Below are positions 7,565-42,413 of a DNA stretch of 57,781 bases, piece by piece. The number at the start of each line of letters is the position of its first letter. Within the stretch, counting starts at the first letter, position 1. Under the pieces are notes generated by a model. That model did no database searches, was not told the DNA's origin, and saw only the letters and a program-made list of their open reading frames with translations. Source of the stretch: a virus (taxonomy: Duplodnaviria > Caudoviricetes); IMG/VR virus record IMGVR_UViG_3300028025_001015, positions 1 to 57,781 of that record; one strand, written 5' to 3'. The position numbers and the translations under genes are program-made.

Positions 7565-8431
7565 ATGAAGATTACCAACAAATACGGTTTACCAGCGCCC
7601 CTCGTCTCATTGGTGTCGAAAGATACATACTCAAAGGGCGCATCCCAGTATAGCGTCACAGAGTTGATGAGTCCACCCAGAGTGAGAAGGTTACGAGAAC
7701 AATACGATGATGTGATCGAAACAGATGTGACTGACCTGGGCTGGCAGTTCATTGGCAAAGGCATCCATATCAACATGGAAAACGCAGTCAACGACAAGCA
7801 CATCAATGAAGAACGCCTGTTTGTGAATGTGGACGGCGTGACCATCAGCGGGGCCATCGACCTGCAAGAGGAAACCCCAGAGGGGGTTGTCATCACCGAT
7901 TACAAGTTCACCAGCGCCTGGGCCTTCATGCAAGAGAAGGTTGAATGGCAACAGCAGTTAAACATTTACAAGTGGTTCGTTGAAACCGTCAAGCGCAAGA
8001 AGGTTATCAAGCTTCAGATCTGCGCCTTCATTCGGGACTTCAACCGCAGACAAGTCAAAGAAGGATACCCACGGGCATCCATTGACATGGTTGACATCCC
8101 CCTGTGGGATGCAGTCACCACCGAAACCTATATTCGGGAACGCCTTGAGATGCACCGCAATGCCAAGGTGTCCCATGACTTTGGGGAAGAACTTCCGTTC
8201 TGCTCCGATGAAGAAAGATGGAAATCAACCCCCGTCTTTGCCGTGAAACGTGAAGGCCGCAAAACAGCCATCCGTTTATTTGAAACCCGTGAAGAGGCCG
8301 ATGAACTGGCTGTGAAGGAAAAAGGATATGTCGAAGAACGACCCGCCGAACCCAAGCGATGCACAGGCAACTACTGCTCAGTCGCCCAGTGGTGCGAACA
8401 ATACCAAGGAGAAATCAATGAACGTAATTGA
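7565..8431 (+). CDS. PD-(D/E)XK exonuclease (RecB/Cas4-like)
   Basis: SVTELM; G..IH; ISGAIDL; TDYK; QLNIY; C-terminal Cys cluster RC..NYC...WC. Lies next to an annealase gene. Confidence 0.85.
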   Translation: MKITNKYGLPAPLVSLVSKDTYSKGASQYSVTELMSPPRVRRLREQYDDVIETDVTDLGWQFIGKGIHINMENAVNDKHINEERLFVNVDGVTISGAIDLQEETPEGVVITDYKFTSAWAFMQEKVEWQQQLNIYKWFVETVKRKKVIKLQICAFIRDFNRRQVKEGYPRASIDMVDIPLWDAVTTETYIRERLEMHRNAKVSHDFGEELPFCSDEERWKSTPVFAVKREGRKTAIRLFETREEADELAVKEKGYVEERPAEPKRCTGNYCSVAQWCEQYQGEINERN

Positions 8432-12776: not shown

Positions 12777-14441
12777 ACGACTGGAAACAAATTTAGACCG
12801 GCTTGCCGCCGAAGCTGGCGTTGAGTTGACCCCTGCGATACGCCGCTTTGCATGGCTTGTGACCCAAGACGCACTGCAAGGGTTTTGGAAAGCAGCCCAA
12901 CACTATGCAGAGTTTGAGCAGGAGAAGGTGAATAGATTTTTGAAGGAGAAATGGAATGATTGAACCAGAAGACGAAGCATTTGAGCAGTTGGCCTTGAAG
13001 CAGGGCCAATGGGAACACACCAGCGGCTGGCGCAAGAAGCAGATCGCACACATGGATGTGCATTCACATCCCGCTGAGTTTGTACACCTACACCGCAACG
13101 ACACGATCGAAGAGGTGGCAAAGGAGTTGGAGACAAAGTTCACTTTGCCGTTCGGTCGTGACACGGTGCAGAGCTTTGTTGCATACATCCGGGGGATGAA
13201 GCGATGAACATCTCCGCACAGAACAAATTTGATTTGGCCTTGCACGATGTACCGCTGTGCGCCATCTGCAACAAGCCAGTGGAGCGCATGGAGTCCTTGT
13301 ATGACATTAACAAATATCAAAAGGTGTTTCGTGTTTTTTGCCACGGACAAATGGAGGAGGCGTTTCTCAACGACATGGATATTTGGAACGCAGACAGCAT
13401 CCGCATGGGCCAAGCGTTTGTTGACAAGCTACCGCAACCACAACTGGAGATGAAGCAATGAGCGATCACCAAGCGGATGCGGCTAGGTACACATTCTTTA
13501 ATCAGCCCAAGGCGGTAGGTTGGTGGTTACTCCCTGGCGGTGTAAACGGCATTGGGGTTAACTGGCCTTGCTACAAGAAACCCCGCTGGCTCACCATCAA
13601 GCTGATGGATTGGTTGTTGGAGTTTAAATACAAGGAGTCAGTATGAAAGCACCACCAGGAAAAGGCGCTTGCCTAATGATGGCAAAGATCACCTACCCCC
13701 GCAATGAACAAGTCAGTTGGAAATGGTTGCTTGCATGGGGCTTCTACGATATGTATGTTGATGGATGGTATGGAGCAAAAGCATGACACAAGAAGCATTG
13801 GCGTTTAAATCTTGGTTGGCTTGGTATTCGTCACCGCCAGAAAACTGGAATGAAAAATATGGGGATGCGTTTGTTTGGACAGCGCAAGAAAAAGCATTGA
13901 TTCAACAACTTAAGGAGAAGCAGAATGAACAGTGATCAGAAGTTTTGGCTTGGCATCTGGGGCATGGTGCTGGCGTTCCTCATGGGAGGCATTTCGTGTG
14001 CCACAGTCTTGGCGTGGCACAAGCTCGACAAGTGGGACAAGGCCGTGAGCAACGGTGCAGACCCGATGGTCGTGACTTGTGCGCTGGATGGTCACGCCGC
14101 AAGCACCGCAATTTGCACAATCTTGGCACAAGGGCGCAAATGAGACCAGAAAAAATATTCCACGCAGTGATGCGAAGCAGAGGCTACATCGACACCGACT
14201 TCAAGATGGAGAAAGGCAGGTATGTAAACGCCGCCATGCAGACCAGATGGAACTATTTCCTGCTGGGCTGGGAGATGCGGGGTGCGGCGTGATTGAGCCT
14301 GTCCGCACATGGCAGACAAGGGAATCAGGTGACAGCACAAAAGTCACAAGCGGTCAGACATGGCGTTGCACCAAATGCAATTTATTTTTTCAAAACAGGA
14401 GTACAGCCAACGAACACAAATGCACGCAACCCGAGGTTTAA
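12769..14441 (+). other. Cluster of small coupled hypothetical ORFs (12769-12963, 12956-13207, 13204-13461, 13458-13646, 13643-13786, 13783-13935, 13925-14143 with a TM helix, 14140-14292, 14289-14441 with a C2HC finger)
   Basis: Continuous chain of overlapping stop/start codons with SD motifs. Confidence 0.65.
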
Positions 14442-14466
14442 ACAATAATTTTTTTTGGAGTGAACA

Positions 14467-15168
14467 ATGAAACGAGAAAATATCCCTGGTGTATCGCACA
14501 ACGAAAACTGCGTTATTTCACCACCTAAGTTTGCAACTGTTGATTTCATCATTGAGGGTGTTGCCCCACTGGTGATTGAGCGGTTCAGTAAAAAAGCTGA
14601 ACTCATGGCAAAGATGGCCGAAGGCAAGTCCGCTGGAAACAGAAAGGTTCGGGACGCAAGGGACTATGAGAAAGAGGCAGAGGATGCCCGGTATCGCAGT
14701 CACGAAGGGTGGGAGGGAATGAATGCCGCCGCATTCCGTTGCGCCATGATTTCTGCTTGTCGATTGGTTGGGTTCAAGATGACCCTTGCCAAGTTGTCTA
14801 CCTTCATTGAGGCTGATGGATACGATGCACAAGACGGCATCCCTTTAGTTCGTGTTTATGGTGAGAGCAAAACCTACACGGCCCACACAAGGAATGCCAC
14901 TGGCGTGGTCGATGTCCGGTCACGCCCAATGTATAGCAAATGGGCATGCAAAGTTCGGGTTCGATTTGACATGGATCAGTTTAAGACTGTTGATGTGCTA
15001 AATCTGTTGAGCCGTTGTGGTCTGCAAGTGGGCATTGGTGCTGGCCGTCCTGATAGTAAGGCCAGTGCTGGCTGTGGGTTTGGTTTGTTCCAAGTAGTTT
15101 CTTCTGATCGTGAACAAGAAGTTCGCAGTAAATTTTCTATTTCAGGTGAATCAAAGAGTTTTGTTTAA
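14467..15168 (+). CDS. Stand-alone Cas7/RAMP-like (RRM-fold) protein
   Basis: N-terminal strand FIIEGVAPLVI; helix MNAAAFRCAMISA (compare RAMP P.SS.KG..R); C-terminal glycine-rich loop GLQVGIGAGRP...GCGFGLFQV. GGAG SD. Confidence 0.72.
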   Translation: MKRENIPGVSHNENCVISPPKFATVDFIIEGVAPLVIERFSKKAELMAKMAEGKSAGNRKVRDARDYEKEAEDARYRSHEGWEGMNAAAFRCAMISACRLVGFKMTLAKLSTFIEADGYDAQDGIPLVRVYGESKTYTAHTRNATGVVDVRSRPMYSKWACKVRVRFDMDQFKTVDVLNLLSRCGLQVGIGAGRPDSKASAGCGFGLFQVVSSDREQEVRSKFSISGESKSFV

Positions 15169-15172
15169 ACAA

Positions 15173-15487
15173 GGCAGGCAAGGCGGGGAACGGCTGGGCC
15201 GGGACGGGATCGGTCAGGATCGGCAGGCGGAGCGAGGCAAGGTTTGGCATGGTGAGGTCTGGTTAGGCTGGACAAGGCAGGCATGGCACGGATAGGCGAG
15301 GAAAGGTCAGGTGGGGCAAGGCAGGCGTAGCCAGGATAGGCGGGGCATGGCGGAGTGAGGCAGGCGTGGATGGGTCTAGCAGGGATCGGCTGGGCAAGGC
15401 CGGGTAATGAAAGGCAGGCGTGGCAAGGTGCGTTGAGGTGTGGTGGAGTTTGGTAAGGCAGGCATGGATCGATTGGGTACAGCAGGC
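15173..15487 (+). ncRNA. Pentamer-periodic array: 7 units of GGCA+(GGH-NN)n; putative guide-RNA array
   Basis: GGCAGGC at 15173, 15222, 15276, 15320, 15359, 15413 and 15457, then AGCAGGC at 15481. Spacings 49/54/44/39/54/44/24 all equal 5n+4. 47 of 56 triplets are GG(C/T/A). The region is intergenic. Confidence 0.8.
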
Positions 15488-15507
15488 ATTTTTAACAAGG
15501 AGAAAAC

Positions 15508-15966
15508 ATGAAAGACGAAAAAGATTTTTTGGAACAGATGGCACGACAGAACAATGGCGTGTTGATGGTTGACGATGTAATTGAAGCGGCAAAGGATGAA
15601 AGTTGTGTGCTACACAAGCACTTTGAATGGGACGATAACGAAGCGGCAAGACAATTCCGCAAGGATCAGGCAAGGTCGTTAATTCAAAGATGCCGAATTA
15701 CATTGCTTGATCGTTCCCCGTCTCACATTCGGGCATTTGTCAGCTTGCCATCAGACAGAGAAAGTGGTGGCGGGTATAGGCTCACGCTCAATGTTTTAAA
15801 CGATGAGTATATGAAGGCTGAACTTATACACGATATTGAACTGACCATTGCCAGATGGAAGGGCAAGCTACATCTGCTAGATTCAGATTTGGTGGAATTG
15901 CTTGAGCAAATGGATGATGCAATCAAACGGCGCAAACCCATGCAAATTGAAGCAGCGTCAGTTTAA
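15508..15966 (+). CDS. Helical hypothetical protein, putative partner of the RAMP-array module
   Basis: AAGGAG SD directly after the array; motif VIEAAK...LHKHFEWDD..AA..FR..QAR.LI. Confidence 0.75.
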   Translation: MKDEKDFLEQMARQNNGVLMVDDVIEAAKDESCVLHKHFEWDDNEAARQFRKDQARSLIQRCRITLLDRSPSHIRAFVSLPSDRESGGGYRLTLNVLNDEYMKAELIHDIELTIARWKGKLHLLDSDLVELLEQMDDAIKRRKPMQIEAASV

Positions 15967-15978
15967 ACAGGAGAAGAA

Positions 15979-16158
15979 ATGAAATGCCCTCAATGTGGAG
16001 TTGAAACGGTGGTTGTACGAAGTGAACGCAAGATAAATGCCCGTGTAAACAGAGTCCGGGAATGCTTCAACGAACACCGCTTCAACACCCTTGAACAACC
16101 AACCAGCGCCCCAAGGGATAAGCACAAGCGCCGTGGACGGCCAAAGAAAAACCCATAA
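15979..16158 (+). CDS. NrdR-N/Ogr-like zinc ribbon with a C-terminal AT-hook
   Basis: Manual translation MKCPQCG...RVRECFNEHRFNTLE...KRRGRPKK; AGGAG SD. Confidence 0.7.
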   Translation: MKCPQCGVETVVVRSERKINARVNRVRECFNEHRFNTLEQPTSAPRDKHKRRGRPKKNP

Positions 16159-16451
16159 TGTACCGTAACCAGAAACTTCTTGAAATTGTCCGGGAGTCAC
16201 CCTGTCAGCTATGCGGAGTCGAGGATGGCACGATAGTGGCCGCTCACTCCAACCAGCTACGGGACGGCAAGGGCCGTGGATTGAAGGCCCACGATTACCG
16301 CATTGCGGCGCTCTGTTACCACTGCCATATGGAAATCGACCAGGGTAAGTCGATGTCCAAGGAGATGCGTTTAAACGCTTGGGATGAAGCTCACCGAAAA
16401 ACTATTGGGTGGTTGTTTGAGTTCAATCACCTGAAGCTATCATCTTTTTGA
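16158..16451 (+). CDS. DUF1364/DUF968-like HNH-fold zinc-binding protein
   Basis: CQLCG...AAHSN...GRGLKAHD...LCYHCH..ID. Confidence 0.7.
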   Translation: MYRNQKLLEIVRESPCQLCGVEDGTIVAAHSNQLRDGKGRGLKAHDYRIAALCYHCHMEIDQGKSMSKEMRLNAWDEAHRKTIGWLFEFNHLKLSSF

Positions 16452-19400
16452 TTTCCTGAACATTCCCGGTCAGTTTATTCTGCGCTTGGGTTACGGCCAG
16501 CAAAGCATCCCGCTTCTCATCCCCGCTCATCCTGCTGTTGCGGATCATGGATGCCACCTCCCGGAATGACTTCATTTCCTTCTCAAGCGCAGAGATGTAA
16601 TCCTTGGATGCCAGGATACGCATGTTGTCCTGCATGTACTCGCCCATCTCCTCATAGTTCCCGGCCTTCTCCAGGTGATTGACGGTACGGACAACCTCAT
16701 CCACTGAGTTCTTCAGATCGTAGTAAGCCGTGACCTTCCCACGGGCCTCTGGGTCAAGAGCAAACCGTTTGATGAACGGCATCTGCTCAAACCGCTTGGT
16801 GGCCTTGGGCACATCACTGTTTGCGTCAATGACCAAATCAATGGTGTCTACGGCGTACATCCCAATGGTTCCGGTGTAGGCTTTGATCAGGTGGTCAACC
16901 TTGAGTGGGGAAAAGCCCAGCATCTTGCCGATGCCTTCTGCAAAGGACGATGTCCCAGGCCCCACCTCATAAACGGAGGCCAAGCCTTCTGCGCCCTGTC
17001 CCACAATGGGGCGGCGGGTGTAGAAGTTGTAGTTGGTGGTGACCTCGTAGATAGGCTTGATCGTCTGGGGCATCAAGTCCATGAACAGACTGCTCTTGAT
17101 GTTGCGAACCATTGCTTCGCTGAAGTCCTTGCCCGTGTCGTTACCAAAGCTGAGTTCCAACAGCCGCTCTGGAATCACTTTAAACAACACGCCCACCTCA
17201 AACGGGATTGGAACCCGCATGCCAAGGCTGGGCAACAGCCAGTTGTTGTCCCGTGTTTCTTGCTCTTGAGCAAGGTACTCGTCATCGTCATGGGTCATGG
17301 CCCAGTACAGGGATGACACGGCCATCATGGTCAGACCACGGATGGCAAAGGTCTTGGCAATCTGCTTCTCGTACTCTGAACTTTCCTGCTTTTCCAAACC
17401 CAGTTTGAAAACATCTGAGGCTAGGTTTACAAGCTGTCTCTTATACGGGCGTATACCTGCACGGTACAGCACATCCAGGCCCTGCATACGGGCGTTAAAG
17501 AAGGGAATGGCGGCTGTGGCTATTCGCACCACAACTGAGTTTCCTCTGCGGTTGAAGTTCATCACCTCAAGGGCACGCATCAGGGCCTCAGTCTCATTGC
17601 CAGTTTCTTCCATAACCTTCTTGTAGATGGCCGCTCTGGTTGCCATGTCAGATGCGGTTGTGCCTTTTTCTAGGGCTTCCCAAATGGATGGGCCGACATT
17701 GAGGACTTTCTGACCAAACGTGCGTGGGCCTTGAGTTTTTTTCTTCAGGGTATCGGCCAAGTCCCGGCCACTTTGTTCCACACCCTTGGAAAACTCATAT
17801 CCACCCATGCCAAAGTTCAGCAGGGCCTCAACCTCTGGTGAGTTCCCGGCCAGGGCTTTACCAAAGTAACGGATGGTGTCGATACCGGGCTTGAAGTTCT
17901 GACCGCTGGTCACCCATGCAGACATGGAGTCCCGCATCAAGTTGGCAAGCATGAAGCCGGGGTCTTTGGTAACCAAAGAACGCAGAAGATTGGCGGGGCC
18001 AGACAGAAACCCAAGGCCAGGTAGCTTGGCGAGGTTTAAACTCTTCAAGCTGTCTACTAACAGAACATCTGATACATGGTAATGCTCAATCTGCCCATTC
18101 CGCAAAATGGATACGGTGTTGATGCCTTGAGGCTTGTTGATCCTTGTGGCCTGATCAATCTGTGGGTCAAGCAACATATCAATAGTGCGGATGGCGGCGG
18201 CATTCTTCATCCCCGCCTGAATGGCGGCTTGTGTGTTCCTTACAACCGTCTCAAGGAAGTCGGCCAACGGAGCCTCACTACCCTTTGCTCGTTTGGGAGG
18301 CTTAACCCCTGAGATGTTTTGATACACCTTCGGGCCAATGGTTTCCTCACCCTCAAGCTGGCGGTAGAAGGGGATGTAGTCCCCGTGCTTCTTGAGCTTT
18401 TCCCCGCCTTCTTTGGAAATAACGCCTGTGCTGACTTGATAGTCCACAAGGGCATCGTTATAAAGGTTCCAATCGGCCTGCACCTGTTTAAACTCAGGGA
18501 ACTTTGTCAGGAGGTGATTTGCGTAGGCAATGTCATCCTTGTTAAACAGCTTCTCCTCATAGACCCCGTTGGGGTTCAGCATGTAGCGTGACCCACGCTG
18601 TACACCAGCCCAGAATTGGTAGGCTTGGTATATCTCCGGGTCGTTGTACTTTGCCAACGGAACAAAGATCAACGCTGGGCCTTTGATCGTGCCGTTCTTG
18701 TTGTCGATGTAGGTAGCGCCATTGCGGTACACAGGAGCGCCACCGGAACTGCCGCCCATGCCAATGACCCGTGCGGCCACACCAGCGGCCATGTCGGACA
18801 TCAACGCCGCCGCCTCTGCACTGGAGTCAGCCATCAAGCGGACAATGCCCTTGGCCTTGGCATAGCGGTTATCCAACCGGGCCAATGAGTCGTACTGATT
18901 CAAGAACATCTGACGCAGAGATGTGTATGTGGGCGGGGTGACGGCATCCAGCATACGGGCCGCATGGCCCTTCTCTTCCCGTGCCGTGGTCTTGGACAAG
19001 TAAGCATCGATGACCTTCTGGTCGCCGATGATGTTACGGACGCTCAGACGAATGTTAGGGTTGGCGGGGTCGTAAGTTCCAATGTTGCCGGTGGCTGACT
19101 TAACCTGTTCAGGTTTAAACGCAAGGGCTTCAATGATGTTGCCAAAGCTGTCCTTGGCAATGATGGAATCATAGCCAGCCTTCTCAAACATCTTCCTTAC
19201 TTCACTACCCTCCAAGTCCATCAGGCGTTTACCTGACAGCTTGGTAGCGGCCTCTTTCATCTGCGTTTCTAGGGCATTGAAAGCCTCGTCCGTTAGGACA
19301 AGGTTGCCACCCTTCATCCGGGTTGGGAAGTCCCCTAGATCGATGTTGTAGGGGTTCTTGGCCGACAAATACAGGGGCATCAACGCAGGCTGGGAGAACC

Positions 19401-22400
19401 CAAATGTTTCTGCGTAAACCGGCACAGAGGTTGTGTAAACGCCAGAGCCAAGCTTCCCATCATCAGACAGGTTGAAGGTGCTAAATAAATTACCCTCTTC
19501 ACCCGGCGTTTCCACTGTCCCGTGGAACATCAGTCTTGGTGAGCCGTCATCGTTGATGGCCTTGCTGCCGTCAAAGAAGCGTTTAAATTCTGGTGTGTTG
19601 GGGGCTATCCGGCCAATCAAAGGCGGGGGACGGACGCTCAACTTCTCGCCCCGCTCTGCCATTTCAGAACGGGTTCCACGGTACTGAACAGGTGCGTTGT
19701 GATTTAGGACAACCATCATGCCCATATCAGGAATGGCATATCCATCGTAGCCAGCGTCTACAACCAATGATTCAAAATCATTTGAGTTGCCTTTGGCTTG
19801 ATCAGACAGTCTGTCGCTCTCTACGCCCGGAGGAAGAATGTTGTCAAACTGCTGCGTGTAAACGTACTGACCCAGACCGGCTTCCGGTATAGGCATGGTT
19901 CCGTCTGGTTTTTGGGTATAGAAATAAACCCGGCGATTGATGCGCTCGTCATTGCTTTGGGCCAGCCGTTTGCTTTCTGCGCCACGGATGCCAGTGCCAT
20001 ACTTGTCGCCATTGAGGGTGTTTACCTTGGCGTTTCCATAGTGAGCGCCCTTGAAGCTTGCCGCCCCAGGTTGCAGGGTTCCTAAAACAACACCTTTGCC
20101 CGTTACTACAGACGCAGGTTCTGCGACTATGTCAGGCTCAATCTCCATGGTCGATGCCCACTCAGGCAATAAACCAATCTTTTGGTCTGCGTATTTTGTG
20201 TCCTTGCCAGATGCTGTTTTGTTGAAGTCAGCATTGGGGCCAAAGTTCACCTCAGAGTTTTGTCCACGGGTTCCTGCTGTCATGGCCCGTGCGGCCAAAG
20301 GAGAATACATTCTTACATGCGATTGGAATGCGTTCTCTTCACCTTCGGCACGGAAGCCAAAGCCTTCTTTGATATGACCGTAGAAATCATGTGTAGCACG
20401 GAACACCTCGACCACCCTGGCCCTGCGGCCAGAAATAACGATGTCGGTCAATGCCAGCGCAGGATTGCTCCTTATCTGCTCGTCAGTGATTGCGTCTTTG
20501 CCAAACCCGCCATCAGCAGGGAACACATATAGATGGTTGTTGTTTAAAACATCCAGTATGGAATTTCTTGGGTTGCCGTAGGTGTCTATGGCATCCGGAA
20601 AAAACTCAACCGTGATGCCCGTCTTGAGCATTGCTTTGTACTGGGCAATAGTTTCATCTGCCCATGCTTTGTATGCGGCTTTGACTTGAGGAGCATTCGG
20701 CTCATCAATCATCCGGGCATAAGAACTTGCCAGCATTTTGGAGAACTCTGGGTCAAGCTTGTGATAGCTTGATTGCTGTCGGTAAGGCAGACCAGACTCT
20801 TCGGCGTACAGAACCGCCGCTTCCCGTGCGGGAATGTAGGGGCCAAACGTCACATCAACGCCGTCAACCTTTACCGTTGCTGGTAACCCTTTAACAGGTT
20901 CCTCAAGACCGGGATACTTTGCCCTTGTCTGTTCATCCAGTAGTTGTACGCCTCTTCGAACTCCTCTTTGCCCTGAAACTGTTCCCGTTTGGGCTTTGAG
21001 TCTTCTAGACGCTTCAGCTTGCTGTGCAGATCCATAGCCAGTTCCTTCGTTGTAGTATGCGTTTACAGCGTCCCTTTGAGCTTGTGCAAGCTCATCAGGG
21101 TCATCAAAATATTCACCTGGGTTCTCAAATACTGTTCTGTTGTCATCTGGGTTGTAGACCATGTAAACAACATCAGGCTCACCACCGTTAAACTTTGAAA
21201 ATGTTTGTTTGTCCCAATCATCAGGCTTGTACTCTTCATTCCACTTCATGCGTCCAACAATTTGAAAACCGTTGGCGTTGTAAAGCGATGGAAGAACAGT
21301 TGCAAAAGCATCAAGCTTTCTGCCGCCCTCTTGGACGGCCAGTTGAATTGAAGAATTAACAGAGCCTTTGTGTGGTGGCCCAGAGAAGACTGAAACAATG
21401 TCATCGCCTTTTAGGGCAATACCGGACTTGCCATCCTCCGTCATAAAGAGGCGCATGTCTGCGTAATCTTCTACGGGGTAAACATAGACAGCCGCCCCAT
21501 ATGGGCTGGCATCTTTGGCATCCCGGATTGCTTTCTCGTACACGCCAGCGTCTTTGCCGCTAATTTCGTAGAACACGGGTGATTGATTCCCGTGCTCACT
21601 GACAATCCCCTTAAACAAATCAGTAGGGGCAAACTCAGCTATAGGCTTTGCGCCTAGAACCCGAACGCTTGTGCCATCTCCAAGGCTTCTTCCCGTGTGA
21701 GTCCGGGATTGCATTTCATTGCGTCCTCTATAGGATCGTATGTCTTCTCGGAGGGAGTATTTCGGCCCGTAGTTGATTTTTTCATTGCCTCCACCGCTGG
21801 GTCGAACGGTAGGTTTTGCAAGTCGTATGTTTTCATTTGTTCCTCTTACACTTAGCTTGGGTTCTTCAGCGGCAGACTCTTCACGAACTCCCTCAGAGCC
21901 TTCGATCTTTCCTGTGGCGACAGCCCCACCGTTAAGTCCTCCAGTGAAGACCACACTGGGTCTTGCTCGTCCAGTACTCTCATTGGCTTGGGCGATGATT
22001 GCTTCTTCGTATCCGATGTCATCTGCTTTCCTTCCGCTTAGTTTTTGATACAGACGCTTCTCGTAGTACCACAATGCCGCCTGTATATCTGCCAGTGTAA
22101 GACTAATCCCCCTGTCACGCAATAGGGTTTGTGTCTTTCTGCCAATATCATACATAAATTTTCTGTCAGACGCAGTAAACGGTGCTTCTGCAAGCATGTC
22201 GTACTCGTTCTTATAGATGGTGTTTGCCATCTTTTCCAGGTTATGTTCGTACAGCATCTGCTCGTAACTGTCGCCAGCAGCCTGCTCGGCACGTTTAAAC
22301 CATGCTGGTTTTGCAAACTTCTTGGCTGGCTCTTTGGACTTAACCAAATGCTCAAGTTCGGTGTTGTACCCATAGTCCAGGTACTTGTCTCGCAACGGGA

Positions 22401-25400
22401 CAGCCGCCGCAATGACTTCCTCACGGGTGGCATCTGGCCTGTCCATCATTGTGCGGAACTTACCAATCGATGCCGCAGTTGCCATGGGGATCAGCAGACC
22501 ACGCATGCGGTTGACCGTGCGAGTCCACCACAGATCCATGGTCAGGTAGCCCTCAGACCCAGACAGGTTGGCGTAGAAAGCGCCCAGCTTTGGCCCGAAA
22601 TAGATGGCCGCTGTTGGCACGGTGGTTTCTGCTAAGTAGCTTGCGTCTGGTTTCTTGCCTCTGGCACGCAACTCCACATTCATGTCGGCAACTGTGGTTT
22701 CCTTCAGCAGATGCTGTTGGAAGTTTTCACCATGTTCAATAAGCAAATCCTGCAAGGTCTGCAAATTGTTTTGCAGGGCCGTGGCCCTTCGGTTACCCAT
22801 CGCCACCAGCGGCTTGCCCATGCGTATCTTGGCATACAGATTGATGGCATTGGAAATGTTCTTCTTGACCTTCTCCCCGTTGGACGTAATTGCCACCAAG
22901 GCTGTAAATACAGCCTGTGCGTGCTTGTTGTCTTCCAACTCCGGGAACCGTCTAGCCAAACGCTTCACTGCGTTGGGGTAATTGTGGGAGTACCAGCCAA
23001 GCCCCGTTCCTGTGGTGGACGTTGTGCCAAGTTGATACATGACCTCATCTGCCATGGCCTCGGACAGCTTGACGGCATCAGCTTCTGTCGGGTTGTTGCG
23101 ATCCATCTTCCCGATGGTGTCGAGCGTTTGCTTGTTTAAAGCAATGGCAATTTGACGAACGTTGTTCAACTGACCGGCTCGTTCACCCGGCTCCTTTGCC
23201 ACTCGCAAGCCCAGTTCCCTACGGGCCACTGCTGTATCGCCTTCCATGAGATCAACGGTGGATAGAGGTACTTGGAACCCTGCACGCAGACTCTTCTTCT
23301 CAGTGCCAGCGCCCTGACCCAGGGCTTTCAACTCACCGGCCTCAACCTTGCCAAAGATGTCATCCACTGTCTGGAACCCAGCGCCAGCCATGGCATTACG
23401 CAGAGCTTCAAAGAATTTGTTTAAACGCTGCATTACCGCAGCGATCATCCCAGGTGGGGGTTTGTTTACAGTGAAGTCGGCAAACGCATCGGCAATTGCT
23501 TCCTCAATAATCAAGTCCATGAAGTCCGCTTGGGACATGACCGTTCTCTGGGGCTTATCAGGGTTCTCCCGATTCCAAACGGTTGGCTCAATAATGTTGA
23601 TGCGCTCGTAAGCATCGTAACGGGATGCCTCATTGGGCTTGATTGGCTTTCCATCAGCGTTACGCTGAAGCAGGTACTTGTTCACCCACTCCGTCCGGGC
23701 CTTACGCTCAAGGGTGGCCCATTGCTGTGGTGTGAAGAACCCTAGAGCCTTCAATGCATGCAACGCCTCATGGCGCATGGTCAACAGAGGATTCTCCTCG
23801 TCCATGGCAATCTTGATCAGGCTCTTGTAGTAGGAGCCTCCTGCCCTACCACCTGCAATGGATTGCTCAATCTTCAGGGCAACATCGTTTAAACCCAGCT
23901 TCCGCAGGGCTGGGAGCAAAAACTTCTCCAGTTCGGCAATTTTGTCTTTAACCTCCTGGGAAACCTCTGGCTCTCCCTCAACCTCAGAGCGTTTGACCGC
24001 AAAGCCTTTGGTGATCCCGGCCTTCTTGTCCTCACGGGCCTGCAACTCGGCCAATGCCCGTTTTGCTAATGTCCTGCGGCCCTCAGTCTTGGTCAGCTTC
24101 TTGAGTTGCTGATCGGACATGTTGGCAATGATGTGCTCTTCTGCGGCTGTCCGGGTGGGGAAGGTAGCAGAAGGGATTCCCTTCTGAAGTACAGTTAGGC
24201 CCCTGCGGCGAACAGGAGCTAACTTGCGGGGCTTGATGGAGATCGGATTTGTCTCCGGGTTATATTTATCTGCCTCGTCAAATGCTTCGTTTGTTTTGAC
24301 CTCCTGCTCTTTAAGCAGTTTTGCATGAGCGCCACGGGCATTAATGTACTCTTGGGTGTTTGCCTCGCCCCTGGCCTCCATTTGCTCAAGGTCACTCTGA
24401 CTGTTAGCAATTTCTTCTTGCAGTTTTGTAACCCTGGCTAACGCTTGGTCAGCCATCCGCTTTCTTATTTTGGTAAAGCCTTCAATTCTTCCTGCGGCAT
24501 CTTCGTAAGACGTTGTATTGGCAAGAACCGTATTCCCGGCCATGATGTCAAAGCTTTCGGGCGCTTCGCCGGTTTTGAACTCACCCTCTTGGATGTCAAA
24601 CTCATCAGGCAGGACGGTGGCGGTCTTTGGTGCAACGACTGCACTCTCAGTCACCTCATTGACGTTTAAACCTTTGGGCTTGGCAGCGGCCTGCGCTTCC
24701 TTGCGGGTTTCGTACAGATCACCAACCCTGACACCAGTGGCCGGGTCAGTGACCTCGTACTTCGGGGTCATCTCCAGATCAAAGTCGCCTTGCTTGACTG
24801 CGGTGTCCAGAATGGCCTTGGCATGCTTATCCAAGGTCAGGCCAGTGGCTTGTTTAATTACGTCCAGCGTAGCCTGCTCAGTCATTGGCCCAGGGGTCAA
24901 AGACAAGCCCTGACCGGACAGAGCCGTATCAACGGCCCGGACTGCGCTGTCGTATTGGCTTTGTTTAAACAGTTTGGCGTTAGTGCCTTCGGGCAGAATG
25001 ATGGGCGCAGATTCTGGTTTCGGGTCAGGCAATCTGTTTAAAGCCTGTGAGACTGCAAGCAACTCAGGGCCAGACATGGTGTCTAGGGAGTTGTTGCCTG
25101 TTGTCCGGGCCAAGAAGTCATTCCACCCTTTGGTTCCTGTCTCAACATTTTTATGTAGCGCAATGTCCAAAACATTGTCGGCAGATATTGGTGTGTTGGC
25201 TTCGTATCCTGTTTTAAACGTCAGGATTGACTCAAGCGAACCCTTCTCCCCGACCTCTGCCAATCCCGGCTGGGCATCCTTCAGGTCTTCAATGGAATAA
25301 GTTTCAAGCTTGGGTAAATTGTTTTTTCGGCGGTAATTGTCTACAAACTTGTACACATCAGACACGCCAACGGCCCTGCCAAGTTCATCCTTGGTCAGGT

Positions 25401-26706
25401 TACCCAATGGGTTAATCAATGGATCGGTGACGGGCGCTGCGGCATCCAGCTTGGTTTTGGACTTGAGTTCCCCTGTCTTTTCATCCTTGTACAGGTCTGA
25501 TTCCAGAAGCAATGGAGGCTTTTCTTCTATGCCCAACTCTTGGCGGGTCTTGGCAATTTCTTCCTGCCTCTTGCGCTCAAACTCTTCCCGCTTCTTGGCC
25601 TCTTCCTCAAACGCCTTCTGCTGTCTTTCAACCATCGTTTGGTTGAACTCCCGCACCATGTTGATTTTCTGGAACGGGGTCACTGCCGTGCCAAGCAAAG
25701 CGGCAACAGCGGCATCATGGGCCACTGCGCTGGTTACACCTTTCAGGGCATCAGTTGGTATGCCTGCTTGTGTCAATGCGATGTTAGTGCCCACTTGCCC
25801 TGTGGCGGCCTGGATACCTTCAGGGATCATCTCACCGAATATTGATGAAACTGCGGCCTTACCGTAGCCTGGGGGTAGCTCTGGTGTAAACGGTTTACCG
25901 GCAGCTGAAGCCACTGCACGATTCTTAATCAGATTGGACAGTGCACCCTCAACACCGTAACGGCCTTCTAATGCGCCAGCACCAGCGGCAACTGCTTGAC
26001 GGGGTAGGTTCTGAAGACTGTAAGCCGCCGCCTCTTGAGCCTTGGCCTCTGCTTCGGGTTCTGGCATGCCACGGTTCATCAGTTCCCGTTTGACTGTCTC
26101 GTAGTCCTGACCCTTCTGACCGCCCAGGCCCATGGCCGCACCAACGCCTGTACCGCTTGCGGCAACTCGTCCAGCCTGTGCCGCACGGGCGGCAAGACCT
26201 GCACGGGCGGCAGTCAATGGGACAGCGCCAGCACCGCCTGTCAAAGCGCCTGCGGCAATGATTGGAGCGGATGAGAAGAGGGCTTGGATGCCCTCCTGCA
26301 ATGGGGCGTTGGCAAAGGAGCGAAAGCCAGCACCAGCCTCGTCCAAGAAGCTACCTTCGGCACGTTTCTTCAGTTCTTCGTCCCTGGCAATCTCTGCCTT
26401 ACGGGCCTCTGACAGACCTTCCTGCGCTGATTGCTGAACGCTGGACAGGCCCCTGGATGCGATGTTCCCTGCGCCGAATAGGTCAGTCAGGGACTGAGCG
26501 CCACCTGCCAAGCCCGTGAGGGCGGCAATGCCCACATCCTTGAGTTTGGATGGGGCGCTTGGGGCTTCTTTGAGTTCCTGGGTTGTTTGGCCTGCGTATG
26601 GTGTTTTGGCAAGCAATACCTGTACAAGTTGCGCTTTTGTTGCGCCTTCCGGGCCTTCTATGTCGTAGCTGTTCCCGTCCGGAGCGGCAATTCTGTAAGT
26701 TGGCAT
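16423..26706 (-). CDS. Giant polyvalent / internal virion (ejection) protein, 3427 aa
   Basis: Zincin motif RHEALH. GNAT-like segment KLDAF...Y...GF. ART-PolyVal-like segment (TPEFKRFF..SK...MFHGT...G.G.Y.T...GYD.I...QVKSATGN.G). LPD38-like C-terminus (RVPIPFEVG...PER). Confidence 0.8.
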   Translation of the reverse strand: MPTYRIAAPDGNSYDIEGPEGATKAQLVQVLLAKTPYAGQTTQELKEAPSAPSKLKDVGIAALTGLAGGAQSLTDLFGAGNIASRGLSSVQQSAQEGLSEARKAEIARDEELKKRAEGSFLDEAGAGFRSFANAPLQEGIQALFSSAPIIAAGALTGGAGAVPLTAARAGLAARAAQAGRVAASGTGVGAAMGLGGQKGQDYETVKRELMNRGMPEPEAEAKAQEAAAYSLQNLPRQAVAAGAGALEGRYGVEGALSNLIKNRAVASAAGKPFTPELPPGYGKAAVSSIFGEMIPEGIQAATGQVGTNIALTQAGIPTDALKGVTSAVAHDAAVAALLGTAVTPFQKINMVREFNQTMVERQQKAFEEEAKKREEFERKRQEEIAKTRQELGIEEKPPLLLESDLYKDEKTGELKSKTKLDAAAPVTDPLINPLGNLTKDELGRAVGVSDVYKFVDNYRRKNNLPKLETYSIEDLKDAQPGLAEVGEKGSLESILTFKTGYEANTPISADNVLDIALHKNVETGTKGWNDFLARTTGNNSLDTMSGPELLAVSQALNRLPDPKPESAPIILPEGTNAKLFKQSQYDSAVRAVDTALSGQGLSLTPGPMTEQATLDVIKQATGLTLDKHAKAILDTAVKQGDFDLEMTPKYEVTDPATGVRVGDLYETRKEAQAAAKPKGLNVNEVTESAVVAPKTATVLPDEFDIQEGEFKTGEAPESFDIMAGNTVLANTTSYEDAAGRIEGFTKIRKRMADQALARVTKLQEEIANSQSDLEQMEARGEANTQEYINARGAHAKLLKEQEVKTNEAFDEADKYNPETNPISIKPRKLAPVRRRGLTVLQKGIPSATFPTRTAAEEHIIANMSDQQLKKLTKTEGRRTLAKRALAELQAREDKKAGITKGFAVKRSEVEGEPEVSQEVKDKIAELEKFLLPALRKLGLNDVALKIEQSIAGGRAGGSYYKSLIKIAMDEENPLLTMRHEALHALKALGFFTPQQWATLERKARTEWVNKYLLQRNADGKPIKPNEASRYDAYERINIIEPTVWNRENPDKPQRTVMSQADFMDLIIEEAIADAFADFTVNKPPPGMIAAVMQRLNKFFEALRNAMAGAGFQTVDDIFGKVEAGELKALGQGAGTEKKSLRAGFQVPLSTVDLMEGDTAVARRELGLRVAKEPGERAGQLNNVRQIAIALNKQTLDTIGKMDRNNPTEADAVKLSEAMADEVMYQLGTTSTTGTGLGWYSHNYPNAVKRLARRFPELEDNKHAQAVFTALVAITSNGEKVKKNISNAINLYAKIRMGKPLVAMGNRRATALQNNLQTLQDLLIEHGENFQQHLLKETTVADMNVELRARGKKPDASYLAETTVPTAAIYFGPKLGAFYANLSGSEGYLTMDLWWTRTVNRMRGLLIPMATAASIGKFRTMMDRPDATREEVIAAAVPLRDKYLDYGYNTELEHLVKSKEPAKKFAKPAWFKRAEQAAGDSYEQMLYEHNLEKMANTIYKNEYDMLAEAPFTASDRKFMYDIGRKTQTLLRDRGISLTLADIQAALWYYEKRLYQKLSGRKADDIGYEEAIIAQANESTGRARPSVVFTGGLNGGAVATGKIEGSEGVREESAAEEPKLSVRGTNENIRLAKPTVRPSGGGNEKINYGPKYSLREDIRSYRGRNEMQSRTHTGRSLGDGTSVRVLGAKPIAEFAPTDLFKGIVSEHGNQSPVFYEISGKDAGVYEKAIRDAKDASPYGAAVYVYPVEDYADMRLFMTEDGKSGIALKGDDIVSVFSGPPHKGSVNSSIQLAVQEGGRKLDAFATVLPSLYNANGFQIVGRMKWNEEYKPDDWDKQTFSKFNGGEPDVVYMVYNPDDNRTVFENPGEYFDDPDELAQAQRDAVNAYYNEGTGYGSAQQAEASRRLKAQTGTVSGQRGVRRGVQLLDEQTRAKYPGLEEPVKGLPATVKVDGVDVTFGPYIPAREAAVLYAEESGLPYRQQSSYHKLDPEFSKMLASSYARMIDEPNAPQVKAAYKAWADETIAQYKAMLKTGITVEFFPDAIDTYGNPRNSILDVLNNNHLYVFPADGGFGKDAITDEQIRSNPALALTDIVISGRRARVVEVFRATHDFYGHIKEGFGFRAEGEENAFQSHVRMYSPLAARAMTAGTRGQNSEVNFGPNADFNKTASGKDTKYADQKIGLLPEWASTMEIEPDIVAEPASVVTGKGVVLGTLQPGAASFKGAHYGNAKVNTLNGDKYGTGIRGAESKRLAQSNDERINRRVYFYTQKPDGTMPIPEAGLGQYVYTQQFDNILPPGVESDRLSDQAKGNSNDFESLVVDAGYDGYAIPDMGMMVVLNHNAPVQYRGTRSEMAERGEKLSVRPPPLIGRIAPNTPEFKRFFDGSKAINDDGSPRLMFHGTVETPGEEGNLFSTFNLSDDGKLGSGVYTTSVPVYAETFGFSQPALMPLYLSAKNPYNIDLGDFPTRMKGGNLVLTDEAFNALETQMKEAATKLSGKRLMDLEGSEVRKMFEKAGYDSIIAKDSFGNIIEALAFKPEQVKSATGNIGTYDPANPNIRLSVRNIIGDQKVIDAYLSKTTAREEKGHAARMLDAVTPPTYTSLRQMFLNQYDSLARLDNRYAKAKGIVRLMADSSAEAAALMSDMAAGVAARVIGMGGSSGGAPVYRNGATYIDNKNGTIKGPALIFVPLAKYNDPEIYQAYQFWAGVQRGSRYMLNPNGVYEEKLFNKDDIAYANHLLTKFPEFKQVQADWNLYNDALVDYQVSTGVISKEGGEKLKKHGDYIPFYRQLEGEETIGPKVYQNISGVKPPKRAKGSEAPLADFLETVVRNTQAAIQAGMKNAAAIRTIDMLLDPQIDQATRINKPQGINTVSILRNGQIEHYHVSDVLLVDSLKSLNLAKLPGLGFLSGPANLLRSLVTKDPGFMLANLMRDSMSAWVTSGQNFKPGIDTIRYFGKALAGNSPEVEALLNFGMGGYEFSKGVEQSGRDLADTLKKKTQGPRTFGQKVLNVGPSIWEALEKGTTASDMATRAAIYKKVMEETGNETEALMRALEVMNFNRRGNSVVVRIATAAIPFFNARMQGLDVLYRAGIRPYKRQLVNLASDVFKLGLEKQESSEYEKQIAKTFAIRGLTMMAVSSLYWAMTHDDDEYLAQEQETRDNNWLLPSLGMRVPIPFEVGVLFKVIPERLLELSFGNDTGKDFSEAMVRNIKSSLFMDLMPQTIKPIYEVTTNYNFYTRRPIVGQGAEGLASVYEVGPGTSSFAEGIGKMLGFSPLKVDHLIKAYTGTIGMYAVDTIDLVIDANSDVPKATKRFEQMPFIKRFALDPEARGKVTAYYDLKNSVDEVVRTVNHLEKAGNYEEMGEYMQDNMRILASKDYISALEKEMKSFREVASMIRNSRMSGDEKRDALLAVTQAQNKLTGNVQEIKKMIASGD
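20871..21035 (-). CDS. Nested small ORF in the +1 frame of the giant gene (54 aa)
   Basis: MDLHSKLKRLEDSKPKREQFQGKEEFEEAYNYWMNRQ...; GAAGGA SD upstream; overlaps an inter-domain linker. Confidence 0.5.
   Translation of the reverse strand: MDLHSKLKRLEDSKPKREQFQGKEEFEEAYNYWMNRQGQSIPVLRNLLKGYQQR
21654..21836 (-). CDS. Nested small ORF in the +1 frame of the giant gene (60 aa)
   Basis: AAGAGGA SD 4 nt before ATG; protein-like sequence ...DPIEDAMKCNPGLTREEALEMAQAFGF. Confidence 0.55.
   Translation of the reverse strand: MKTYDLQNLPFDPAVEAMKKSTTGRNTPSEKTYDPIEDAMKCNPGLTREEALEMAQAFGF
21852..21983 (-). CDS. Nested small ORF in the +1 frame of the giant gene (43 aa)
   Basis: MRVLDEQDPVWSSLEDLTVGLSPQERSKALREFVKSLPLKNPS. 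Stops just before the SD of the next nested ORF; its own SD is weak. Confidence 0.35.
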   Translation of the reverse strand: MRVLDEQDPVWSSLEDLTVGLSPQERSKALREFVKSLPLKNPS

Positions 26707-41917: not shown

Positions 41918-41927
41918 GGCTTACCCC

Positions 41928-42404: not shown

Positions 42405-42413
42405 GGTATTTCC

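What the first reader, a model, noticed from the sequence alone, without database searches (positions are those of the whole stretch)
15173..15487. Array grammar: seven units of GGCA+(GGH-NN)n with information only in the dinucleotides
Manual parse: units start at 15173, 15222, 15276, 15320, 15359, 15413 and 15457 and hold 9, 10, 8, 7, 10, 8 and 4 pentamers; the array closes with AGCAGGC-ATTTTT. Every spacing is 5n+4, so register is never lost. 47 of 56 triplets are GGC/GGT/GGA, none is GGG, and the 9 deviants are single-base variants (AGC x3, AGT x2, GAC, GAT, GTT, TGA). NN strings differ per unit. U1: AA GG AC TG CG CG TC CA TC. U2: GG GA AA TT AT GA CT TA TG AA. U3: AT AC TA GA AA CA GG AA. 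U4: GT CA TA GG AT GG GA. U5: GT TG CT AG TC TG AA CG AA AA. U6: GT AA GC GA GT GG TT AA. U7: AT TC TG AC. A slippage microsatellite would homogenise NN, and a coding repeat would have period 3. Constant scaffold plus variable positions looks like interleaved repeat and spacer. The 4-nt GGCA phase break could be a processing or capping site.
Basis: seen in the sequence. Interest (0 to 1): 0.9.

Follow-up and report, generated by a model that had tools for sequence, protein, structure and literature searches.

The report
Phage VIPR guide-RNA array
The odd five-base repeat is the guide-RNA array of a phage VIPR system, a recently described relative of CRISPR, and two of its guides appear aimed at genes of rival integrated phages.

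Summary
Positions 15173-15487 hold seven units, each a GGCA token followed by GGH-NN pentamers (56 pentamers). The GG period of 5 is far beyond shuffles.

The element is a "staggered" vrRNA array of a VIPR system (Viral Interference Programmable Repeat), described in three 2026 bioRxiv preprints.
- All 50 related phage loci fetched with that protein keep gene, array and a 152-aa gene together. 58 distinct arrays share the grammar.
- The published 1-nt-skip code finds targets. Guide U6 matches at least 120 viral contigs, 101 of them in frame on one motif of an AAA_24 ATPase gene. Guide lineages from other relatives hit the same gene, 973 hits against 13-23 for other skip lengths.
- Guide U5 reads the tyrosine-recombinase box II motif.

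The kind is already known, so this is a new member. No targets were found for U1-U4 and U7. RNA processing at GGCA is untested.

The parts
14467..15168 (+). vipr gene: 233-aa RAMP (Cas7-like) protein, predicted to polymerise on the vrRNA, one protomer per pentamer
15173..15487 (+). Staggered vrRNA array: seven guide units separated by GGCA tokens, closed by AGCA-GGC
   Evidence: parse and statistics. (the same grammar in 58 distinct arrays of relatives). Fig. S18 legend of 10.64898/2026.04.26.720920.
15177..15221 (+). Guide unit U1 (9 pentamers); no target identified
   Evidence: One exact viral hit, about what chance would give. Its first 7 dinucleotides are shared with L002/L003.
15226..15275 (+). 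Guide unit U2 (10 pentamers); unique to this phage, no target found
   Evidence: 0 exact matches in viral and in metagenome contigs. Present in no other array.
15280..15319 (+). Guide unit U3 (8 pentamers); no coherent target
   Evidence: 33 heterogeneous exact hits in viral contigs.
15324..15358 (+). Guide unit U4 (7 pentamers); searched only in held sequence
   Evidence: Shared with L002-L004. No hit above background in held sequence.
15363..15412 (+). Guide unit U5 (10 pentamers): read antisense it spells codon positions 1-2 of the tyrosine-recombinase box II motif F-F-R-F-H-D-L-R-H-T
   Evidence: 4 of 4 exact metagenome hits fall in frame on (L/F)FR(F/L)H(D/E)LRHT. With the 8-dinucleotide core, 118 of 120 viral hits read R[FL]H[DE]LRHT. 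Shuffle control.
15417..15456 (+). Guide unit U6 (8 pentamers): read sense it spells V-K-A-D/E-V-G-F-N of an AAA_24 (Sak4-like) ATPase gene of other phages, several of them classed provirus
   Evidence: 101 of 120 read VKA(D/E)VGFN in the frame where NN are codon positions 1-2. PF13479 at E 1.6e-53. It is the most widely shared guide of the clade.
15461..15480 (+). Short terminal unit U7 (4 pentamers)
   Evidence: Too short to search in the collections.
15508..15966 (+). 152-aa gene, candidate vipr-accessory protein (vap); function unknown
   Evidence: Found beside vipr and the array in all 50 loci fetched with the Vipr protein, with the order permuted in four. The model is helical with pLDDT 83.4. 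No PDB fold match at E <= 0.001. phrog_15946, unknown function.

Best explanation
The region is the guide-RNA (vrRNA) array of a phage-encoded VIPR system, of the tail-less 'staggered' architecture. It is transcribed on the + strand, probably together with the upstream vipr gene. Each unit of 7-10 GGY-NN pentamers is bound by a filament of the 233-aa Vipr RAMP protein, one protomer per pentamer. The protein buries GG and the pyrimidine and presents the NN pairs. The NN pairs base-pair with double-stranded DNA while every third target base is skipped. A guide therefore reads codon positions 1 and 2 of a gene and ignores the wobble base, and binding silences transcription. The 4-nt GGCA token is the place where two pentamer tracts overlap by one G, and it marks the unit boundary. 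In this phage, guide U6 is aimed at a conserved motif of an AAA_24 (Sak4-like) ATPase gene of other phages, several of them classed provirus. Guide U5 is aimed at the catalytic box II motif of tyrosine recombinases (integrases). The system is thus a weapon against competing integrated phages or satellites. Shown here: the grammar, its conservation, the RAMP/Vipr homology, the gene linkage, and the in-frame 1-nt-skip matches with controls. Taken from the preprints or inferred: filament formation, DNA binding, silencing, and RNA processing at GGCA.
For: Grammar and statistics.

Conservation: a + strand array lies at the same place in all 50 loci found with the 233-aa protein and in 35 of 37 further loci found with the 152-aa protein. 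In 58 distinct arrays (3838 pentamers), G is 0.91 and 0.88 at positions 1 and 2. Position 3 is C 0.54, T 0.32, A 0.14, G 0.004. Positions 4-5 are near uniform. GGCA makes up 444 of the break tokens.

Wider linkage: 54 of 64 genome loci with a homologue carry a + strand array. The same GGCA + GGYNN grammar lies next to the homologues of cyanophage Cy-LDV1, mycobacteriophage Saal and an Azohydromonas prophage.

Code: on 120 loci holding the U6 site, guides of the clade give 973 hits at >= 90% NN match under the 1-nt skip, against 14, 13 and 23 under 0-, 2- and 3-nt skips. Without the U6 lineage the figure is 641. Five independent guide lineages besides U6 hit the same AAA_24 gene, at offsets that are multiples of 3 and on conserved peptides. 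On a 47.6-kb provirus they cluster at 41489-42621.

U5.

Other: guide NN frequencies correlate with codon positions 1-2 of the sense strand (r 0.71) and not with other frames. RNA-library contigs run from vipr into array variants.

Literature: 10.64898/2026.04.26.720920 (Results, Discussion and methods sections read). 10.64898/2026.04.26.720927 (Results part 1). 10.64898/2026.10.15.759431 (outline and section 6).
Against: No small-RNA data exist for this phage. The RNA-library contigs may be DNA carry-over and cannot show ends.

Five of the seven window guides have no identified target. U2 has 0 exact hits in two collections. U1 has 1 hit, at chance level. U3 has 33 heterogeneous hits. U4 and U7 were not searched in the collections.

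The clade's guides show no excess of matches on the window genome or on the relatives' own loci.

The two residues that read the guanines in SUSP1 Vipr (D177, W178) align with A192 and G193 here, so GG recognition must differ in detail.

Position 3 is A in 11 of 56 pentamers here and in 14% across the clade, although the SUSP1 pocket is said to exclude purines.

There is no structured 3' tail (fold z -1.25), unlike the characterised type II systems.

U5 matched none of 5 AAA_24-bearing records at up to 3 mismatches, so U5 and U6 do not demonstrably hit one element.

The core-pattern scan is partly circular, because the pattern itself spells the motif.
Confidence: 0.92

Rival explanations
1. 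A structural G-rich element acting as nucleic acid only: two-tetrad G-quadruplexes or an R-loop-forming tract (GG every 5 nt, 48% G against 17% C) that serves as a replication origin, a pause site or a recombination hotspot, with the NN positions free because they are loops.
For: Strong strand asymmetry and GG spacing compatible with G2 quadruplexes. No promoter-like or above-chance terminator-like site around it.
Against: Loop positions would not spell in-frame codon positions 1-2 of conserved motifs in other phages' genes. They would not do so only under a 1-nt skip. Position 3 is G in 0.4% of pentamers, which a quadruplex would not require. The array is tied to a RAMP gene across phyla.
Confidence: 0.03
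2. A binding platform or sponge for a ring-shaped or multimeric RNA-binding protein that reads triplets with 2-nt spacers, in the manner of TRAP (GAG/UAG triplets; recalled, not tested) or CsrA (GGA). It would regulate the downstream gene or titrate a host factor, and the NN positions would carry no information.
For: A triplet plus a 2-nt spacer is the layout of TRAP sites (recalled). Units of 7-10 repeats. The array lies directly upstream of a ribosome-binding site and a gene.
Against: Unit sizes vary from 6 to 13 within the clade, which does not suit a ring of fixed size. Only 10 of 56 triplets are GGA. The NN strings do carry information. The adjacent protein is a Cas7-like RAMP homologous to a solved Vipr.
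Confidence: 0.02
3. A decaying pentanucleotide satellite produced by slippage, without function.
For: A tandem short-period repeat whose length differs among strains.
Against: TRF barely detects it because the copies are not homogenised. Constraint is position-specific in 3838 pentamers. Orientation and place are fixed in all 50 loci found with the Vipr protein. The GGCA punctuation is conserved from proteobacterial to actinobacterial and cyanobacterial phages.
Confidence: 0.01

Closest known systems
Staggered vrRNA arrays of VIPR systems (bioRxiv 10.64898/2026.04.26.720920, fig. S18 legend and type-classification methods)
   Same: GGY/NN pentamer tracts next to a vipr RAMP gene in a phage. 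Adjacent tracts overlap by 1 nt, which gives the 4-nt GGCA token and the 5n+4 spacing. There is no ribozyme or tail between units.
   Different: The figure and the supplementary tables could not be seen, so I cannot say which of the seven types this is or whether this clade is among the 667 published systems. In the main texts searched, the targets found here are not mentioned. 'Integrase', 'recombinase', 'AAA', 'Mycobacter', 'cyanophage' and 'freshwater' had 0 occurrences in the discovery paper. 'Staggered', 'tyrosine' and 'Sak4' had 0 occurrences in the competition paper.
Type II VIPR of coliphage SUSP1 and the Pseudomonas fulva prophage (same preprints; PDB 36pp)
   Same: A homologous Vipr protein (profile E 9.4e-07). 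GGY/NN guides of about 9-16 repeats. The 1-nt-skip code aligned to codon wobble. Targets are in competing mobile elements, including a recombinase (10.64898/2026.10.15.759431, section 6).
   Different: SUSP1 vrRNAs are about 100 nt and end in a conserved roughly 40-nt pseudoknot tail. Here units are 39-54 nt with no structured tail. The guanine-reading residues D177/W178 are not conserved. A is tolerated at position 3 in 14% of pentamers. Arrays hold up to about 24 units (L049). The accessory gene has a different, unrecognised fold.
Class 1 CRISPR backbone subunits (Cas7: Csm3, Cmr4, type VII Cas7)
   Different: No CRISPR repeats, no Cas1/Cas2 and no other cas genes in the window. The period is 5 with three bases buried, rather than 6 with one flipped. 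The guide information is noncontiguous.
TRAP binding sites in Bacillus trp leaders (recalled)
   Same: RNA triplets separated by 2-3 nt spacers, read by a protein multimer.
   Different: A different triplet, a different protein fold, a fixed number of 11 repeats, and spacers without information. Not tested beyond the points under rival explanations.

Membership tests
VIPR system | Sequence homology to an experimentally characterised Vipr | tested here: met
   The profile of 61 homologues against PDB sequences gives a single hit, 36pp_D SUSP1 Vipr, E 9.4e-07. The single sequence gives only E 0.39.
VIPR system | Conservation of the SUSP1 residues that read GGY (H17, R138, D177, W178, R179) | tested here: inconclusive
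   In the HMMER alignments R138 aligns with R153 and R179 with R194. D177 and W178 align with A192 and G193; the family consensus has E at the first of these. H17 lies outside the aligned stretch.
VIPR system | vrRNA: tandem YNNGG/GGYNN pentamers (at least 4; typically 9-16) with conserved GGY and hypervariable NN, in an intergenic region beside vipr | tested here: met
   The window units hold 9, 10, 8, 7, 10, 8 and 4 pentamers. The clade mode is 9 (range 6-13 for most units).
VIPR system | Targets follow the 1-nt-skip rule, mostly in coding sequence with the skipped base at the wobble position | tested here: met
   973 hits under the 1-nt skip against 14, 13 and 23 under the controls. In-frame peptides and offsets that are multiples of 3. 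U5 hits in frame on box II.
VIPR system | No self-targeting at 80% NN match or more | tested here: inconclusive
   On the window genome with the array masked, no skip rule stands out, and only 1 of 360 guides reaches 0.9 under the 1-nt skip. For short guides, 80% is within chance on 58 kb, so the paper's threshold is not informative here.
VIPR system | vrRNAs are expressed, processed to unit length and co-purify with Vipr | not testable with these tools
   Only contigs of four RNA libraries were available. They cover vipr and run into array variants. DNA carry-over is not excluded and ends are not visible.
VIPR system | Accessory vap gene beside vipr | tested here: inconclusive
   The 152-aa gene is linked in all 50 loci found with the Vipr protein. 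It has no family or fold assignment. It cannot be matched to vap1-6 without the supplements.
VIPR type II (SUSP1-like) | A conserved structured 3' tail (pseudoknot) after each repeat tract | tested here: not met
   Units follow each other directly, with only the GGCA token between them. The whole tract folds no better than shuffles (z -1.25; 9 of 100 shuffles fold as well). No Rfam family matches.
VIPR, staggered-array architecture | Adjacent vrRNAs share one nucleotide, so that the end of one marks the start of the next | tested here: met
   A 4-nt token lies between pentamer tracts at every junction. GGCA accounts for 444 break tokens in 58 arrays. Whether RNA ends lie there is untested.
CRISPR-Cas | An array of identical repeats of more than 20 nt with unique spacers, plus cas1/cas2 or effector modules | tested here: not met
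   No such repeats. The ORF scans show phage replication, structural and unknown genes only.

The most novel reading that the evidence does not exclude
Tail-less staggered VIPR arrays may be read as one continuous Vipr filament whose register jump at the conserved GGCA(G) junction is itself the unit-defining and processing signal, with no RNA structure needed. Guides such as U5 may be 'protein-motif guides': by reading only codon positions 1-2 of the near-universal tyrosine-recombinase box II motif, one 50-nt RNA would silence the integrases of many unrelated prophages and satellites at once. A lytic phage could then freeze every resident element of its host. The concentration of independent guide lineages on about 1.1 kb around one Sak4-like ATPase gene would mark an Achilles heel of a widespread temperate phage group.
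Probability: 0.3. Interest if true: 0.65.

Novelty: new member of a known kind. Interest (0 to 1): 0.45.

Why it matters
It shows that a reader working from raw sequence alone recovered the logic of a guide-RNA system that was first described only in 2026.

For the field, this locus adds the following.
- An uncultivated phage clade found in freshwater and subsurface metagenomes, with 58 distinct staggered arrays and about 360 distinct guides.
- Computational support for the 1-nt-skip code in a Vipr lineage far from SUSP1, with different guanine-reading residues and some A at position 3.
- Concrete predicted targets. Independent guide lineages converge on one AAA_24 (Sak4-like) gene of other phages, and one guide spells the catalytic motif of tyrosine integrases.
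- Cultured models that carry the same architecture: mycobacteriophage Saal and its relatives, and cyanophage Cy-LDV1. In these, processing at the GGCA junction could be tested.

Tried and rejected
No Rfam family matched; the three weak lncRNA matches were far below gathering scores.

blastn of the locus against the phage collection found nothing.

I first considered TRAP-like sites, CsrA sponges, G-quadruplex or R-loop origins, Chi-like clusters and type III toxin-antitoxin RNA arrays. I dropped them once the Vipr homology and the coding-frame matches appeared.

Guides of the clade against the window genome gave no excess for any skip rule. The same was true against the relatives' own loci. 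This clade is therefore not visibly aimed at its kin or at other vipr loci among the sequences held.

Exact scans by guide:
- U2: 0 hits in viral and in metagenome contigs.
- U5 at full length: 0 hits in viral contigs.
- U1: one hit. By my reading of the printed context, it puts NN on codon positions 2-3, so I took it as chance.
- U3: 33 heterogeneous hits, several on YD-repeat-like peptides, taken as background.
- U5 on five AAA_24-bearing records: no match at up to 3 mismatches.

The constant AG of the junction pentamer GGCAG matched in only 1 of 4 U5 hits, by my reading of the contexts. It probably does not pair with the target.

The 152-aa protein had no Pfam family, no PDB sequence match and no Foldseek match.

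RNA-library contigs do not cover most of the window's own array. This says nothing either way, because the strains in those samples carry other array variants.

Calls that gave no result:
- A PHROG scan failed on a mis-framed reference and was not repeated.
- Supplementary files of the preprints were not available, so type assignment and overlap with the published 667 systems remain open.

Full report
**1. The observation**

The window is a 57,781-bp IMG/VR virus record, estimated 92% complete. Positions 15169-15507 are intergenic. They lie between a + strand ORF of 233 aa (14467-15168) and one of 152 aa (15508-15966).

- Seven units start at 15173, 15222, 15276, 15320, 15359, 15413 and 15457.
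- Each unit is GGCA followed by 9, 10, 8, 7, 10, 8 and 4 pentamers, 56 in all.
- 47 of 56 triplets are GGC, GGT or GGA. None is GGG. The nine listed deviants are correct.
- The array closes with AGCA-GGC.

A dynamic-programming parser that knows only "GG then not-G, period 5, breaks penalised" returns the same segmentation.

The periodicity is far beyond chance. GG-GG pairs at lag 5 number 39, against 16.5 +/- 3.4 (maximum 28) in 1000 dinucleotide-preserving shuffles. At lag 10 they number 45, against 16.1 +/- 3.4 (maximum 26). Positional entropy is 0.56, 0.35, 1.49, 1.94 and 1.92 bits. Nothing comparable exists elsewhere in the window on either strand.

**2. Conservation**

The search for related loci returned 50 viral loci with the 233-aa protein and 39 with the 152-aa protein (37 of them new). 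A simple in-phase GG scan finds an array of 200-1200 bp on the + strand, between the two genes, in all 50 of the first set and in 35 of the 37 new loci of the second set. The exceptions are L086 and L087. Only three 50-bp chance-like hits lie on the - strand.

Parsed arrays show the same grammar everywhere: a 4-nt token, almost always GGCA, then GGC/GGT-NN pentamers. In 58 distinct arrays, counting 3838 pentamers with the last unit of each array left out:
- Position 1 is G in 91% and position 2 in 88%.
- Position 3 is C 54%, T 32%, A 14% and G 0.4%.
- Positions 4-5 are near uniform.
- The break tokens are GGCA 444 times and AGCA/CGCA/TGCA 23 times.
- Units hold mostly 7-11 pentamers, with a mode of 9.

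Among 117 pairs of near-identical units, substitutions fall at position 3 in 17.1% of sites, against 5.1-8.2% at the other four positions. GG and NN are both kept within a guide lineage, while the pyrimidine drifts.

Phages whose 233-aa proteins are 98-99% identical to the window's (L002-L004) share units U4-U6 but differ in the units nearest the upstream gene. U2 is unique to the window. Diversity therefore arises by gain and loss of whole units.

**3. What it is**

A phmmer search of the 233-aa protein against PDB sequences gave one weak hit, "SUSP1 Vipr protein" (36pp_D, E 0.39).

A literature search then listed three 2026 bioRxiv preprints on VIPR (Viral Interference Programmable Repeat) systems. 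A second search found no further description, only one more preprint that mentions the term once.

What I read of them:
- Discovery paper, 10.64898/2026.04.26.720920: Results, Discussion and four methods sections.
- Structure paper, 10.64898/2026.04.26.720927: Results part 1.
- Competition paper, 10.64898/2026.10.15.759431: outline and section 6.

They report the following.
- A minimal RAMP protein (Vipr) is encoded mostly in phages.
- It polymerises on vrRNAs made of 9-16 GGY-NN pentamers.
- It buries GGY and presents NN.
- It recognises double-stranded DNA while skipping every third target base, usually the codon wobble base.
- Binding silences transcription of competing mobile elements.

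[quoted passage not shown] That is exactly a 4-nt token between pentamer tracts, which gives the 5n+4 spacing.

**4. Membership tests**

*Protein.* The 233-aa protein belongs to a large family: 2018 cluster representatives at E <= 0.001. A profile of 61 members hits only SUSP1 Vipr in the PDB sequences, at E 9.4e-07.

The AlphaFold model is confident (pLDDT 89.7, pTM 0.85). Its best structural matches are Cas7-family subunits.
- Foldseek E is 9.2e-06 to Csm3, with 48 matches at E <= 0.001.

In the alignments the SUSP1 thumb arginine R138 and G-loop arginine R179 are matched by R153 and R194. The guanine-reading D177 and W178 are matched by A192 and G193.

*Gene linkage.* vipr, array and the 152-aa gene occur together in all 50 loci, with the order permuted in L044, L048, L049 and L051. 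The 152-aa protein is helical and matches no known family or fold. I call it a candidate accessory (vap) gene only.

*Wider distribution.* In bacterial and MAG genomes of many phyla, 54 of 64 loci with a Vipr homologue carry a + strand array. In 27 of the 63 with enough flank it begins directly after the gene. The same GGCA + GGYNN grammar lies beside the homologues of cyanophage Cy-LDV1 (g34), mycobacteriophage Saal (gene 51) and an Azohydromonas aeria prophage.

*RNA features.* The tract has no structured tail. Its MFE is -96.9 kcal/mol against -91.6 +/- 4.2 for shuffles, z -1.25. No promoter-like site and only chance-level terminator-like sites surround it. This fits co-transcription with vipr.

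Contigs from four freshwater RNA libraries cover vipr and continue into array variants. This is weak evidence, because DNA may be present in such libraries.

**5. The code and the targets**

I converted guides to the published NNx form.

*U5.* The 20 specified bases had no exact match in viral contigs and four in metagenome contigs. All four lie, antisense and in frame, on (L/F)FR(F/L)H(D/E)LRHT, the box II motif of tyrosine recombinases. In my reading of the contexts, three of the four continue into the LGH...Y region.
- Only this guide lineage (2 of 360 distinct guides) spells HxLRH. Dinucleotide-order shuffles give 0.02-0.07 such guides.
- The L004 variant differs by one NN base and still encodes Leu, by TTR instead of CTN.
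102 of the 120 match 18 of the 20 guide bases. This scan is partly circular, but it shows that the pattern occurs in nature almost only in integrases.

The equally long U3 pattern gave 33 heterogeneous hits.
- 101 of the 120 U6 sites read VKA(D/E)VGFN in the frame where NN are codon positions 1-2.
- The gene is an AAA_24 ATPase, PF13479 at E 1.6e-53.
- Its relative in Rhizobium phage 16-3 is annotated as a Sak4-like ssDNA annealing protein.
- The window has no homologue of it and no H.LRH[TSA] motif in any frame.

*Skip-length control.* On the 120 U6-bearing loci, the 360 clade guides gave 973 hits at >= 90% NN match under the 1-nt skip. They gave 14, 13 and 23 under 0-, 2- and 3-nt skips. After removing the U6 lineage, which selected the loci, 641 hits remain.

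*Convergence.* Guides from other phages hit the same gene at GYGKGYVA, NGWNSIE, MTVIQIAH, YDRYVIKL and KNRYALPET. All are sense, and their offsets from the U6 site are multiples of 3. Two more guides hit neighbouring genes. On one 47.6-kb record the hits cluster at 41489-42621. Four of the five long target records are classed provirus.

*Composition.* Guide NN frequencies correlate with sense codon positions 1-2 (r 0.71) and not with other frames. Most of this follows from base composition.

*Limits.*
- No target was found for U1-U4 or U7.
- No skip rule shows an excess on the window genome or on the relatives' own loci.
- U5 did not match five AAA_24-bearing records.

**6. Mechanism**

*Shown here:*
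- the grammar and its conservation;
- linkage to a Vipr homologue with a RAMP fold;
- a 1-nt-skip, wobble-aligned match of two window guides, and of several relatives' guide lineages, to conserved motifs of other phages' genes.

*Inferred from the preprints:*
- one Vipr protomer per pentamer;
- a filament that presents NN;
- an R-loop triplex on double-stranded DNA;
- transcriptional silencing.

*Untested:*
- cleavage or filament capping at the GGCA junction;
- the role of the 152-aa gene;
- how new units arise.

The phage encodes a primase/helicase, an exonuclease, a portal, a large terminase, tail fibres and a 3427-aa protein. I found no tyrosine recombinase motif. I therefore read the array as the weapon of a probably lytic phage against resident prophages or satellites of its unknown host. 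The precedent is SUSP1 vrRNA4, which silences a satellite's excision recombinase.

**7. Novelty**

The kind is known from the 2026 preprints, including the staggered layout. This locus is a new member.

Differences from the characterised type II systems:
- no tail;
- other guanine-reading residues;
- 14% A at position 3;
- long arrays;
- an unrecognised accessory gene.

The predicted targets are not mentioned in the main texts I searched.

Noticed in passing
window 16423-26706 (-): A single ORF of 3427 aa converges on the VIPR operon. Its C-terminus is conserved next to the HNH gene in several relatives. Its function was not examined.
   Followed up: no
window 15979-16158 and 16158-16451 (+): A 59-aa NrdR-like zinc ribbon (just below the Pfam cut-off) and a 97-aa HNH endonuclease (phrog_131) follow the 152-aa gene. 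The HNH gene recurs downstream in some relatives, at variable distance. The preprint mentions HNH-type vap proteins in other VIPR types, so a link is possible but not shown.
   Followed up: partly
window 2-266 and 27738-27808: Tandem repeats of period 21/27/48 lie at the window start inside ORF 2-1159, and CCACCG-type repeats lie inside ORF 26709-28607. They look like coding low-complexity repeats.
   Followed up: no
window 7565-8431 (+): An exonuclease (phrog_2139) has a weak second match to a PHROG labelled 'CRISPR/Cas system associated' (E 6.6e-05). It may be a Cas4-like PD-(D/E)xK nuclease.
   Followed up: no
L049 4197-5392: The most distant viral relative (45% protein identity) carries a 1.2-kb array of about 24 units in a GC-rich genome, with position 3 almost always C and many GCC/GTC/GAC triplets.
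   Followed up: no
L153 (cyanophage Cy-LDV1, BK059895.1) 3116-3418 and 3913-4070; L154 (mycobacteriophage Saal, NC_023580.1) 2043-2339: Cultured temperate phages carry the same staggered arrays in their immunity regions, beside repressor and excisionase genes. Cy-LDV1 has two arrays flanking g33. Saal has one between genes 50 and 51. The Vipr homologues are annotated as hypothetical proteins. 25 Mycobacterium and 5 Gordonia phage records match.
   Followed up: partly
L002-L004 versus window 15173-15487: Among phages whose Vipr proteins are 98-99% identical to the window's, the units far from vipr (U4-U6) are shared. The units next to vipr are replaced or added. This polarity recalls leader-end turnover in CRISPR arrays, but no acquisition machinery is evident.
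   Followed up: partly
L004 unit 6 (also held as L054): The integrase guide differs from the window's U5 by one NN base. The change moves the decoded Leu from the CTN to the TTR codon family and keeps the peptide motif. It may reflect tracking of a target variant.
   Followed up: partly
window 14400-16000, runs X15-X17: Contigs from freshwater RNA libraries stop matching the window just inside the array and continue with other units. One contig joins 15179 to 15320 through 32 different letters. Several array variants therefore co-exist in nature.
   Followed up: partly
L164, L198 (hits of the U6 pattern): Two U6-pattern hits fall in frame on a different protein, MmcB-like (PF06319), reading VNAEVGLN. 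They are probably chance matches, but they show that short guides can cross-hit unrelated genes.
   Followed up: no
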